Source of the DNA: Felixounavirus AN17P8 | DNA: 64,000 nt | Sequence record: OZ035742.1 | Reading direction: 5' to 3' (one strand) | Shown: positions 59,386 through 59,529 of the stretch, in pieces | Numbering within the stretch: the first letter of the stretch is position 1 | How the letters are laid out: each line of letters starts with the position of its first letter | The notes under the pieces: model-generated | What the model was told of the DNA's origin: nothing | Seen by the model: the letters and a program-made list of their open reading frames with translations, nothing else | Database searches by the model: none | Made by a program: the position numbers and the translations under genes

Positions 59386-59529
59386 AATTATCTTTGTAGA
59401 TAAGTTATTAAGCTTACCTGTGAGTATGCGACCACAAAGGGTGAAAGGGTAAATTCTAGATTTAAACCCGAAAAGTCACATCGCTACAGACCTTAAGCAA
59501 GTCTGGGTAGCTTATCTACAAAGATAATT
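59386..59529. repeat. perfect 19-bp inverted repeat separated by 106 nt, just upstream of tRNA-Lys(TTT)
   Basis: AATTATCTTTGTAGATAAG (59386-59404) and CTTATCTACAAAGATAATT (59511-59529). Confidence 0.7.

What the first reader, a model, noticed from the sequence alone, without database searches (positions are those of the whole stretch)
59386..59529. Perfect 19-bp inverted repeat enclosing 106 nt immediately upstream of tRNA-Lys
AATTATCTTTGTAGATAAG and its exact reverse complement bracket a 106-nt segment containing a further hairpin (CAGAC-cttaagcaa-GTCTG). A perfect long inverted repeat in a tRNA spacer could be a processing structure, a regulator binding site, a small-RNA gene, or the scar of a mobile insertion. 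Just upstream is a tRNA 5'-half-like string (GTTGGTGTAATGGTAGCAC) with no matching 3' half, which may be a disrupted tRNA.
Basis: seen in the sequence. Interest (0 to 1): 0.45.

Follow-up and report, generated by a model that had tools for sequence, protein, structure and literature searches.

The report
Conserved structured RNA before phage tRNA-Lys
The inverted repeat is real and is the long closing helix of a conserved, folded non-coding RNA that always sits just before the lysine tRNA in FelixO1-like phages; its function is unknown, and the "broken tRNA" beside it is a tRNA-mimicking Y RNA belonging to an unannotated phage Ro60-like gene.

Summary
Observation confirmed. The window is a Felixounavirus tRNA array. 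Arms 59386-59404 and 59511-59529 are exact reverse complements. With G·U pairs they extend to a 24-bp helix (P1) ending 4 nt before tRNA-Lys(UUU).

P1 is an RNA helix on the tRNA strand. In 20 distinct variants all 660 pair cells stay paired, and 6 pairs show double compensatory changes. Twelve Ounavirinae-like lineages have unrelated arm sequences but keep a roughly 20-27 bp helix spanning 141-173 nt. It lies 0-10 nt before tRNA-Lys(UUU) in 11 of them and before tRNA-Lys(CUU)+tRNA-Lys(UUU) in the twelfth.

Inside, most lineages keep a hairpin with loop YUUNAGCAA. That loop can pair with the bases just after P1's 5' strand, a candidate pseudoknot that covaries. Rfam has no match. There is no empty site, target duplication or second copy, so it is not a mobile-element scar.

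The "tRNA 5' half" is the D-arm of a YrlA-type Y RNA (59251-59387). The gene upstream (56791-58206, DUF2828) has a Ro60 fold. However, a relative lacking both Ro60 and YrlA keeps the element, which ties it to tRNA-Lys rather than to Ro60.

Most likely it is a discrete RNA released by RNase P, and possibly RNase III. Its function is unknown.

The parts
59386..59409 (+). P1 5' strand, the first arm of the inverted repeat (19 nt perfect, 24 with U·G pairs)
   Evidence: Covariation: (22 aligned pairs, 4 with double changes, 3 with A-U to G·U, 0 broken).
59506..59529 (+). P1 3' strand, the second arm; ends 4 nt before tRNA-Lys
59412..59416 (+). GCUUA, the candidate 5' strand of a pseudoknot with the loop of the last hairpin
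   Evidence: It is the unique complementary site in the interior. It covaries across lineages: GCUUA/UAAGC, GCUAA/UUAGC, UUGCUUA/UAAGCAA, UUGUUCA/UGAACAA. Inferred, not proven.
59428..59484 (+). Central domain (GCGA...UCGC stem with sub-hairpins). The apex AUUCUAGAUU (59453-59462) is invariant in Felixounavirus, Mooglevirus and Suspvirus.
   Evidence: GCGA/UCGC becomes GCGG/CCGC in L140.
59487..59505 (+). Last hairpin: 5-bp covarying stem plus 9-nt loop CUUAAGCAA. UAAGC at 59494-59498 is the candidate pseudoknot 3' strand.
59534..59609 (+). tRNA-Lys(UUU), the invariant downstream partner. Its 5' end (the RNase P site) would define the element's 3' end.
59251..59387 (+). YrlA-type Y RNA (tRNA mimic) fused to the element.
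   Evidence: 12 of 29 pairs with compensatory changes
56791..58206 (+). Ro60-like protein gene (Pfam DUF2828 + DUF7788, i.e. HEAT ring + vWA), immediately upstream of the tRNA array
   Evidence: top 11 Foldseek PDB hits are all Ro60/TROVE; 31-34% identical to mycobacteriophage 'Ro-like RNA binding protein'
58226..58346 (+). Two sigma-70-type promoter-like sites (58226-58254 and 58317-58346) that could drive the polycistronic tRNA / Y RNA transcript
   Evidence: No + strand terminator-like site lies between them and 59530. Co-transcription is inferred.

Best explanation
The inverted repeat is the terminal helix (P1, about 24 bp) of a discrete structured non-coding RNA of about 144 nt, embedded in the phage's polycistronic tRNA / Y RNA transcript on the + strand.

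Shown: P1 and the last hairpin are maintained by compensatory substitutions. The element is present in every Ounavirinae-like lineage examined, with unrelated arm sequences. It always lies immediately 5' of a tRNA-Lys gene: 0-10 nt before tRNA-Lys(UUU) in 11 lineages and before a Lys(CUU)-Lys(UUU) pair in one.

Inferred mechanism: the RNA folds co-transcriptionally so that its two ends pair. RNase P cleavage at the 5' end of tRNA-Lys, 4 nt downstream, creates its 3' end. The long helix with a tail of 4 nt or less shields that end from 3' exonucleases and insulates the tRNA from the AU-rich spacer. Because P1 is kept at roughly 20 bp or more everywhere, it is also a plausible RNase III substrate. 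Cleavage there would detach the element from the YrlA Y RNA fused to its 5' side, in the way rRNA processing stems work.

P1 caps a three-way junction. The loop of its last hairpin (YUUNAGCAA) probably forms a 5-7 bp pseudoknot with the bases just after P1's 5' strand. This core would be the functional part.

A relative lacking Ro60 and YrlA keeps the element, and a Ro60-encoding relative lacks it. Its role is therefore more likely tied to the production or protection of tRNA-Lys than to the Ro60 particle. What the core binds or does is unknown.
For: Structure and strand:
- z = -6.05 for the window allele and -6.21 for the second allele.
- In 20 distinct variants 100% of 660 pair cells are paired and 6 pairs have changes on both sides. 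With partners slid by 1-3 columns only 26-50% are paired.
- P1 contains 3-6 G·U pairs per lineage, which fit only + strand RNA.

Deep conservation with different sequence:
- Long terminal helices spanning 141-173 nt occur in HK3/fBSPA4, Mooglevirus, L140/L236, L141, L142/L235, L143, P778, Arno162, L233 and L234.
- The best inverted-repeat score upstream of tRNA-Lys is 15-24, against 6-14 upstream of other tRNAs in the same loci.

Fixation: in the listed sample of about 250 records carrying this tRNA-Lys, every record that matches the tRNA also carries at least the last hairpin and the 3' arm.

Pseudoknot: a unique complementary site of 5-7 nt sits in the same place in 7 of the 8 lineages scored with shuffles, in three or more covarying versions. 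By eye it is also 7 nt in Arno162 and 4 nt in L233 and L235.

Independence from Ro60: the complete Arno162 genome has no Ro60-like gene (best tblastn E 0.07; positive control 7e-169) and no YrlA-like module, yet keeps the element 1 nt before tRNA-Lys. L065 has the Ro-like gene but no element.

Processing context: no spacer separates the element from the YrlA-like RNA, and 4 nt separate it from tRNA-Lys. Two other leader hairpins in the window end 1-3 nt before tRNA-Arg and tRNA-Leu and share the AUCUUU/AAAGAU base.
Against: - There are no expression, end-mapping or cleavage data. No transcriptome of a Felixounavirus was found.
- The interior is poorly conserved. The two Felixounavirus alleles differ over most of it, and L234 has a different interior containing a T-arm-like minihelix. 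The selected feature may therefore be only the long helix and its position, with the interior as evolving cargo.
- The pseudoknot is absent in L142, only 4 bp in L233 and L235, and competes with a local hairpin in the minimum-free-energy folds.
- The lineages are few and related, so the shuffle p-values are not independent.
- Linkage to tRNA-Lys could reflect tight physical adjacency rather than function.
- SP116-type phages have deleted the element together with tRNA-Lys, so it is dispensable at least in the laboratory.
- RNase III cleavage is purely inferred from helix length.
Confidence: 0.6

Rival explanations
1. It is another Y RNA: a partner of the phage Ro60-like protein. P1 plays the part of the Y RNA terminal stem and the pseudoknotted core that of the effector-binding module.
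For: It lies 1.2 kb downstream of, and on the same strand as, a Ro60-fold gene. It is directly fused to a YrlA-type RNA. Its overall shape, a long helix pairing the 5' and 3' ends plus a looped module, is that of a Y RNA. The AGCAA in its last loop resembles the CAGCAA that follows the helix in all four Y-like modules. Chen et al. note that Ro60-bound RNAs have eluded bioinformatic discovery (PMC4201824).
Against: Arno162 has lost Ro60 and YrlA but keeps the element, and L065 has Ro60 but no element. There is no GNCGAAN0-1G motif and no CAGAAGAC motif in the window copy. The stem of the last hairpin does not track the Y-module helix in other lineages. P1 has no bulged helix like known Ro60 sites.
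Confidence: 0.15
2. Only the long hairpin matters. It is a generic leader or processing hairpin (an RNase III site, a 3'-end protector for upstream RNAs, or an insulator for tRNA folding), and the 96-nt interior is non-functional filler.
For: Helix length and position are the only features kept in all 12 lineages, while the interior is replaced in L234 and differs strongly between alleles. Simple hairpins of 17 and 27 bp with the same AUCUUU/AAAGAU base end 1-3 nt before tRNA-Arg and tRNA-Leu in the same window.
Against: The last hairpin keeps a conserved 9-nt loop with a covarying stem in most lineages. A complementary segment covaries with that loop. The apex AUUCUAGAUU is invariant between two otherwise different alleles. 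Filler of 90-140 nt would not be expected to persist at about 50% protein divergence.
Confidence: 0.2
3. It is a MITE-like mobile element, or the scar of an insertion, flanked by terminal inverted repeats.
For: Perfect 19-bp terminal inverted repeats enclose about 100 nt, and two sequence 'alleles' occupy one site.
Against: There is no target-site duplication. It is single-copy in 64 kb. No empty site was seen among the listed records out of about 250. It sits at the same position in lineages with about 50% protein identity, with arms that differ yet stay complementary through G·U pairs. The one deletion seen (SP116) runs between two T-loops and is not a precise excision.
Confidence: 0.02
4. 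It is a DNA-level palindrome: a binding site for a dimeric regulator, or a cruciform or origin-like structure.
For: The near-perfect symmetry of the outer 19 bp. The covariance model also scores the minus strand at 41 bits through the palindrome.
Against: The arms are 106 nt apart, too far for a simple operator. Pairing continues through 3-6 G·U pairs that are mismatches in DNA. The inner hairpins covary independently. The element lies inside a transcribed tRNA array with all genes on the + strand.
Confidence: 0.02
5. It is a ligand-sensing or self-cleaving RNA (riboswitch or ribozyme) controlling the release of tRNA-Lys.
For: A closing helix, three-way junction and loop pseudoknot are typical of such RNAs. 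The position directly upstream of a processed RNA also fits.
Against: No Rfam family reaches E = 10 over 59104-59540. The core sequence is poorly conserved between lineages. There is no expression platform, and RNase P already provides the cut.
Confidence: 0.04

Closest known systems
YrlA/YrlB bacterial and phage Y RNAs with Ro60 (Chen et al. 2014, PMC4201824; Thermus phage phiLo Ro60-Yrl, PMC12135203)
   Same: The genomic setting is the same: a Ro60-fold gene with small structured RNAs on the same strand. The neighbouring RNA (59251-59387) has the full YrlA layout of terminal helix, V, T, closed acceptor stem and D. The element itself shares the Y RNA outline of a long 5'/3' terminal stem plus a module.
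   Different: The element has no tRNA-like domain, no GNCGAAN0-1G or CGAA motif and no bulged Ro60-type helix. It persists in a phage without Ro60. FelixO1-like phages are not among the phages named in the papers read (mycobacteriophages, CcrColossus, Bacillus phage G, phiLo).
RNase III processing stems flanking 16S and 23S rRNA in bacterial rRNA operons (textbook knowledge, not tested here)
   Same: A long (>20 bp) helix formed by sequences flanking a structured RNA within a polycistronic transcript that also carries tRNAs. Cleavage in the stem releases the enclosed RNA.
   Different: The enclosed RNA here is about 100 nt of unknown function. No cleavage data exist. The 3' arm abuts an RNase P site.
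Stable small RNAs co-transcribed with phage tRNA clusters (T4 species 1 and 2 RNAs; own knowledge), and GOLLD/ROOL RNAs found near tRNAs in phages
   Same: Non-tRNA structured RNAs embedded in or next to phage tRNA gene clusters, released by the tRNA processing machinery, with function still unclear.
   Different: No sequence or Rfam similarity. The element is much smaller than GOLLD or ROOL. It has a specific, conserved linkage to one tRNA, Lys(UUU).
MALAT1/MEN-beta with mascRNA (RNase P makes the 3' end of an upstream RNA at a tRNA-like structure; own knowledge)
   Same: The 3' end of an upstream non-coding RNA would be generated by RNase P cutting at the 5' end of a downstream tRNA(-like) structure, and would then be protected by local structure.
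   Different: That is a eukaryotic nuclear system in which a triple helix, not a 24-bp duplex, protects the end. Here the downstream partner is a real tRNA.

Membership tests
Y RNA (YrlA/YrlB type): the inverted-repeat element 59386-59529 | Encoded near a Ro60 ortholog on the same strand | tested here: inconclusive
   Met in this window: the Ro60-fold gene is at 56791-58206. But Arno162 keeps the element with no Ro60-like gene in its complete genome, and L065 has the gene without the element.
Y RNA (YrlA/YrlB type): the inverted-repeat element 59386-59529 | GNCGAAN0-1G (or CGAA) motif near the 5' end | tested here: not met
   Absent from the window copy. One Mooglevirus variant has an internal GCCGAAG, but it is not conserved.
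Y RNA (YrlA/YrlB type): the inverted-repeat element 59386-59529 | tRNA-like domain with T, closed acceptor and D stem-loops (YrlA) | tested here: not met
   The folds show a three-way junction without T- or D-arm consensus. Only L234 has a T-arm-like hairpin inside.
Y RNA (YrlA/YrlB type): the inverted-repeat element 59386-59529 | Bound by Ro60 | not testable with these tools
   Needs RIP or EMSA.
   T-arm GAAGG-UUCGAUU-CCUUC; acceptor stem ACUCGGC-AGAU-GUCGAGU (7/7 pairs); D-arm GGUGU-AAUGGUA-GCACU. This matches the description in PMC4201824. 12 of 29 pairs show compensatory changes across 6 lineages.
YrlA Y RNA: the neighbouring RNA 59251-59387 | GNCGAAN0-1G motif near the 5' end | tested here: not met
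   The 5' strand reads ACAGAAGACC here and AAAGACUCU or AUAGGACUC in relatives. It resembles the motif but does not match it.
YrlA Y RNA: the neighbouring RNA 59251-59387 | Within a few kb of, and on the same strand as, a Ro60 ortholog | tested here: met
   It lies 1.05 kb downstream of 56791-58206. The protein has a Ro60 fold and is homologous to mycobacteriophage Ro-like proteins. Similar orphan T + closed acceptor + D modules lie beside this protein family in many IMG/VR loci.
MITE / insertion scar | Target-site duplication, multiple copies, presence/absence polymorphism | tested here: not met
   Flanks are CTGGT / TAATG. The element is single-copy. No empty site was seen in the records listed out of about 250.
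RNase III substrate | About 20 bp or more of nearly uninterrupted double-stranded RNA | tested here: met
   24 bp in the window and roughly 20-27 bp in all 12 lineages.
RNase III substrate | Cleavage by RNase III in vivo or in vitro | not testable with these tools
   Needs an rnc mutant or an enzyme assay.
Intrinsic terminator | GC-rich hairpin followed by a U tract | tested here: not met
   The scan reports no + strand terminator-like site between 58400 and 59600. The stem is AU-rich and is followed by UUAAU and then the tRNA.
Any Rfam 15 family (riboswitches, ribozymes, sRNAs) | Covariance-model match | tested here: not met
   Nothing relevant at E up to 10 over 59104-59540, and nothing at E up to 1 over 57500-64000 for this stretch.
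   The complementary 3' acceptor strand and T-arm lie 5' of it in permuted order. The whole module is conserved with covariation.

The most novel reading that the evidence does not exclude
The element is a previously unrecognised class of pseudoknotted RNA dedicated to tRNA-Lys(UUU). tRNA-Lys(UUU) is a favourite target of bacterial anticodon nucleases such as PrrC and PARIS AriB (PMC11464382, known here from its title and my own knowledge; PMC11555353, from its abstract). The element could be a cis-acting maturation chaperone or timer for the phage's replacement tRNA-Lys, or a trans-acting decoy or inhibitor that protects it. This would explain why the element stays within 0-10 nt of the Lys tRNA, or beside a Lys tRNA pair, through gene-order changes and even after loss of the Ro60/Y RNA system.
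Probability: 0.15. Interest if true: 0.8.

Novelty: new variant of a known kind. Interest (0 to 1): 0.55.

Why it matters
FelixO1 is a classical, genetically tractable Salmonella/E. coli phage. If the analysis holds, three points follow.

1. Its tRNA array carries an undescribed structured RNA family strictly linked to tRNA-Lys(UUU), a tRNA at the centre of phage-host conflicts.
2. Its "DUF2828 / RNA-binding protein" gene is a Ro60 homolog accompanied by YrlA-type tRNA-mimic Y RNAs. This would give an enterobacterial phage model for viral Ro60-Y RNA biology, which in the papers read is named only for mycobacteriophages, CcrColossus, Bacillus phage G and Thermus phage phiLo.
3. Dozens of "hypothetical protein" and "pseudo-tRNA" annotations in this spacer across roughly 250 deposited genomes are probably wrong.

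The natural Ro60-less relative that keeps the element, and the Ro60-bearing relative that lacks it, already point to separable functions that can be tested directly.

Tried and rejected
- Rfam scans of the array and of the spacer alone gave nothing for the element or the YrlA-like RNA.
- Sequence and profile searches of the upstream protein against PDB sequences found nothing. Only the fold search showed Ro60.
- I first thought the last hairpin's stem (CAGACC/GGUCUG) was a miniature copy of the Y-module helix (CAGAAGACC...GGUCUGG). I rejected this because in L140, L141, L142 and P778 the two helices differ from each other.
- I considered reading TTGACA/TTTACA before the Y-like modules as internal promoters. 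The -10 matches are poor, and UUAC is part of a covarying outer helix. Left open.
- A GNCGAAG match inside the Sf17 variant is not conserved, so I dismissed it.
- The covariance model R1, built from the Felixounavirus/Mooglevirus alignment, found only L140 convincingly (61 bits). It was too narrow to recover P778, L141 or L142.
- Two pattern scans of IMG/VR added only close variants (GGTCTGGTAATNNTCTTTG) or chance hits (GTGTAACGTTCACT).
- A blastn search with the Yersinia version found only the phage itself.
- Literature searches for DUF2828 in phages and for Felixounavirus transcriptomes found nothing relevant.
- The supplementary tables of Chen et al. 2014 are not held, so I could not check whether any FelixO1-like phage is among their 22 phages.
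- The MAFFT alignment A1 misregisters the last loop by one column between alleles, so I scored the pseudoknot with my own script rather than with the count of structure pairs.
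Full report
**1. Observation**

The window region 58373-63585 is an array of 26 tRNA genes, all on the + strand. It is 98-99% identical to many Felixounavirus (FelixO1-like) genomes.

- AATTATCTTTGTAGATAAG (59386-59404) and its exact reverse complement (59511-59529) bracket 106 nt. The inner hairpin CAGAC-CTTAAGCAA-GTCTG is at 59487-59505, and tRNA-Lys(UUU) starts at 59534.
- The 19-mer occurs nowhere else in 64 kb even with 3 mismatches, against 0.05 expected.
- The repeat is the most complementary of the 15 inverted repeats of at least 16 nt in the window.
- As RNA the 144 nt fold at -46.1 kcal/mol, z = -6.05. The stem continues through three U·G pairs to 24 bp.

**2. 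It is an RNA helix, not a DNA palindrome**

The element is present at 95% identity or more in about 189 phage records. A second "allele" occupies the same site in Salmonella phage fBSPA4 and Escherichia phage HK3, and in modified form in Mooglevirus and Suspvirus. The ends and a few internal motifs are kept and most of the interior differs, but the fold is the same (z = -6.21).

I aligned 20 distinct variants (A1).
- RNAalifold predicts 33 pairs. P1 has 22 aligned pairs: 4 with changes on both sides (U-A to C-G twice, G-C to C-G, U·G to G-C), 3 with A-U to G·U, and none broken.
- On the named structure 100% of 660 cells are paired and 6 pairs show double changes. With partners slid by 1-3 columns only 26-50% are paired.
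- P1 carries 3-6 G·U pairs per lineage. These would be A·C mismatches in duplex DNA or in a minus-strand RNA.

**3. Deep conservation with unrelated arm sequences**

I used the upstream protein as a handle to fetch relatives at 47-63% protein identity from public assemblies and GenBank. Twelve lineages carry a long terminal helix of roughly 20-27 bp, allowing one or two mismatches or small internal loops, spanning 141-173 nt:
- the window allele
- HK3/fBSPA4
- Mooglevirus/Suspvirus
- L140 and L236
- L141
- L142 and L235
- L143
- Yersinia phage P778
- Pectobacterium phage Arno162
- L233
- L234

In 11 of these lineages the helix ends 0-10 nt before tRNA-Lys(UUU). In L233 it lies before a small hairpin followed by tRNA-Lys(CUU) and tRNA-Lys(UUU). 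The arm sequences are essentially unrelated between lineages.

As a control I scored the best inverted repeat upstream of the other tRNAs that follow spacers of 90 nt or more in the same loci. It scores 6-14, against 15-24 upstream of tRNA-Lys. The neighbours of the unit change: a YrlA-like RNA or tRNA-Ala upstream, and tRNA-Met or tRNA-Leu downstream. The element plus tRNA-Lys unit does not.

Among about 250 GenBank records with this tRNA-Lys, every listed record that matches the tRNA also matches from at least window position 59484, that is the last hairpin and the 3' arm. The only loss seen is in SP116. There a deletion runs from the T-loop of the YrlA-like RNA to the T-loop of tRNA-Lys and removes both the element and the tRNA.

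**4. Anatomy inside P1**

The folds give a three-way junction: a short 5' region, a central domain and a last hairpin.

- *Last hairpin.* It has a 5-6 bp stem that covaries freely: CAGAC/GUCUG, CAAACC/GGUUUG, CAGUC/GACUG, UGUUC/GAACG, GAGAC/GUCUC, CAACC/GGUUG, AAAGUC/GACUUU, CCGUC/GAUGG. Its 9-nt loop has the consensus C-Y-U-N-N-R-C-A-A.
- *Candidate pseudoknot.* I scored 8 lineages with shuffles. In 7 of them the loop has exactly one complementary site of 5-7 nt in the interior, and that site always lies 0-8 nt after P1's 5' strand. The partner changes with the loop: GCUUA/UAAGC (window), GCUAA/UUAGC, UUGCUU(A)/(U)AAGCAA, UUGUUCA/UGAACAA. Per-lineage shuffle p-values are 0.002-0.1. By eye Arno162 has 7 nt, L233 and L235 have only 4 bp, and L142 has none. 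I regard the pseudoknot as likely but unproven. It competes with a local hairpin in the minimum-free-energy folds, and the lineages are few and related.
- *Central domain.* Its closing stem covaries (GCGA/UCGC to GCGG/CCGC in L140). Its apex AUUCUAGAUU is invariant across the two Felixounavirus alleles.
- *L234.* This lineage has a different interior with a T-arm-like minihelix. Helix length and position are therefore the only universal features.

**5. The neighbourhood changes the reading of the "tRNA half"**

*The upstream gene.* The ORF 56791-58206 matches Pfam DUF2828 + DUF7788. Sequence searches against PDB fail. An AlphaFold model (pLDDT 87) gives Ro60/TROVE structures as its top 11 Foldseek hits: phiLo 9kop, Xenopus 2i91/1yvp and Deinococcus 2nvo, with E of 2e-8 to 6e-7 and TM up to 0.66. 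tblastn shows 31-34% identity to mycobacteriophage "Ro-like RNA binding protein" genes.

*The Y RNA.* Chen et al. (PMC4201824) describe YrlA Y RNAs next to Ro60. They have a terminal helix followed by V, T, a closed "acceptor" stem-loop and D. The segment 59251-59387 has exactly this layout:
- V stem-loop at 59285-59308
- T-arm GAAGG-UUCGAUU-CCUUC at 59309-59325
- acceptor stem ACUCGGC-AGAU-GUCGAGU at 59326-59343
- a terminal helix AGACCGUU/AACGGUCU

Six lineages aligned give 12 of 29 pairs with compensatory changes. Similar orphan modules lie next to this protein family in many IMG/VR loci, and about half of 80 such loci have tRNA arrays adjacent to the gene, usually directly downstream. So this is a Y RNA, not a broken tRNA.

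It departs from the published motif: the 5' strand reads ACAGAAGACC rather than GNCGAAN0-1G. Three shorter modules with the same 5' motif (58541-58618, 58708-58777, 59164-59246) may be YrlB-like. The phages named in the papers I could read are mycobacteriophages, CcrColossus, Bacillus phage G and phiLo. I found no mention of FelixO1-like phages or of DUF2828 in this context, but the 2014 supplementary tables are not held.

**6. Is the element itself a Y RNA?**

Its 5' end is fused without a spacer to the YrlA-like RNA; the outer 4-bp helix of that RNA even overlaps the first 2 nt of P1. Its outline, a long end-to-end stem plus a module, is Y RNA-like. Two natural experiments argue against dependence on Ro60.
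- The complete genome of Pectobacterium phage Arno162 has no Ro60-like gene (best tblastn E 0.07, against 7e-169 for the control). It has no YrlA-like module, and its Asp-Ala spacer is only 78 nt. Yet it retains the element 1 nt before tRNA-Lys, with a roughly 27-bp P1, the loop CUUAAGCAA and a 7-nt pseudoknot partner.
- L065 encodes the Ro-like protein next to 22 tRNAs but has no such element.

The element also lacks the Ro60-associated motifs. Its last-hairpin stem does not follow the Y-module helix in other lineages.

**7. Mechanism**

*Shown:* a + strand RNA structure under selection, single-copy, vertically inherited, and glued to tRNA-Lys.

*Inferred:*
- The array is transcribed from the sigma-70-like promoters at 58226 and 58317, with no terminator-like site before 59530.
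- RNase P cutting at tRNA-Lys +1 would leave the element with a tail of 4 nt or less on a 24-bp helix. That configuration should resist 3' exonucleases.
- The conserved helix length makes RNase III cleavage plausible, by analogy with rRNA processing stems. Cleavage would detach the element from the YrlA-like RNA and leave a short leader on pre-tRNA-Lys.
- Two simpler leader hairpins in the window suggest a generic role for such stems. They are 59976-60010 before tRNA-Arg and 60581-60671 before tRNA-Leu. Both share the AUCUUU/AAAGAU base and an AU-rich tail.
- The conserved loop and pseudoknot argue that this particular stem carries a functional core.
- What the core does is unknown. Its linkage to tRNA-Lys(UUU), a frequent target of anticodon nucleases that phage tRNAs can counter (PMC11464382, PMC11555353, plus my own knowledge), suggests a role in tRNA-Lys supply or protection.

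**8. Rivals**

| Reading | Confidence |
|---|---|
| Discrete structured RNA tied to tRNA-Lys (best explanation) | 0.60 |
| Generic hairpin with a filler interior | 0.20 |
| Y RNA partner of Ro60 | 0.15 |
| Riboswitch or ribozyme | 0.04 |
| MITE or insertion scar | 0.02 |
| DNA palindrome | 0.02 |

**9. Novelty and score**

The repeat is real and belongs to an RNA family absent from Rfam 15 and from the literature searched. The kind of thing is known: a stable structured RNA embedded in a phage tRNA operon, possibly excised through a processing stem. Its architecture and its strict tRNA-Lys linkage are new. The YrlA-like RNA and the Ro60-like gene are new members of a known system. Function is untested, so I score interest at 0.55.

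Noticed in passing
window 56791-58206 (+): A gene annotated in GenBank as hypothetical, 'RNA-binding protein' or 'vWFA protein' (Pfam DUF2828 + DUF7788) has a Ro60/TROVE + vWA fold. It is homologous to mycobacteriophage Ro-like proteins. In about half of 80 IMG/VR loci this family sits next to a tRNA array, usually directly upstream of it.
   Followed up: yes
window 58541-58618, 58708-58777, 59164-59246 (+): Three further modules share the 5' motif (A/G)CAGAAGACCnn-UUnCAGCAA and the 3' strand nnGGUCUGG with covarying nn, but have no tRNA-like domain. They may be YrlB-like Y RNAs interleaved with tRNA-Glu, Met, Asn and Asp. The motif occurs 4 times against 0.1 expected.
   Followed up: partly
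window 59783-59896 (+): A strong sigma-70-like promoter (TTGACA-17-TATAGT, 59783-59811) is followed by AAAAUAAAU GCA AAC GAC AAU GUU UUU CUG GCA GUA GCU UGA UAG (59861-59896). This is a tmRNA-like tag ORF, ANDNVFLAVA**; the E. coli tag is ANDENYALAA. Rfam gives sub-threshold hits: tmRNA_permuted 29.2 bits and tmRNA 15.7 bits. The ORF is conserved in Mooglevirus and L140 with a synonymous GAC to GAT change and a TGA to TAA stop change. No tRNA-like domain was identified and ARAGORN calls no tmRNA.
   Followed up: partly
window 59976-60010, 60581-60671 and 62224-62233 (+): Long leader hairpins (17 bp and about 27 bp) end 1-3 nt before tRNA-Arg(UCU) and tRNA-Leu(UAG). Together with the element's P1 they share the base AUCUUU.../...AAAGAU followed by an AU-rich tail. 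AAAGAUUUAAA also directly precedes tRNA-Gln at 62234.
   Followed up: partly
window 60316-60328 / 60417-60429: A 13-nt inverted repeat (92%) brackets tRNA-Ser(UGA) at 60329-60418, extending its acceptor stem.
   Followed up: no
window 60236-60313 (+): A tRNA-like sequence that ARAGORN does not call. It has acceptor GGGACG/CGUCCC, T-arm GGGG-UUCAACU-CCUC, an anticodon loop CUCCAAA (CCA = Trp) and an aberrant D region. The weak Rfam hit is 23 bits to the tRNA-Sec model. It may be an unusual tRNA-Trp or a pseudogene.
   Followed up: no
window 58864-58932 (+): The spacer between tRNA-Asn and tRNA-Tyr folds well (z = -2.6) and contains a degenerate T-arm-like string (GGUGCAAGUCC). It may be a tRNA remnant.
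   Followed up: no
L006 (Salmonella phage SP116) 1179-1214: A natural deletion joins the T-loop of the YrlA-like RNA to the T-loop of tRNA-Lys. It removes the 3' half of the Y RNA, the whole element and most of tRNA-Lys, apparently by recombination between T-loop sequences.
   Followed up: partly
L059 (Yersinia phage P778) 6010-6200; L144 (Arno162) about 1900-2190; L141 about 6679: An RNA of 140-270 nt resembles a tRNA with a large insert. In P778 the acceptor is GCGGGUG/CACCUGC with G3·U70, and D- and T-arms are present. It is followed by a conserved tail GCUGCUCUAAAGGUAGCG...GAGAAAAUAACACGAGGCGACAG. Its identity is unknown; a tmRNA-like RNA is one possibility.
   Followed up: no
L059 4647-4838: In Yersinia phage P778 a second long-stem element (27-nt arms at 85%, 138 nt between them, z = -6.6) ends 12 nt before the first tRNA of the array, tRNA-Pro.
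   Followed up: no
window 59107-59452 and the homologous stretch in GenBank records: Many deposited genomes annotate small 'hypothetical protein' ORFs or 'tRNA-OTHER/pseudo' features across the Asp-Lys spacer. The covariation patterns indicate that these are structured RNAs, so the protein annotations are probably spurious.
   Followed up: partly
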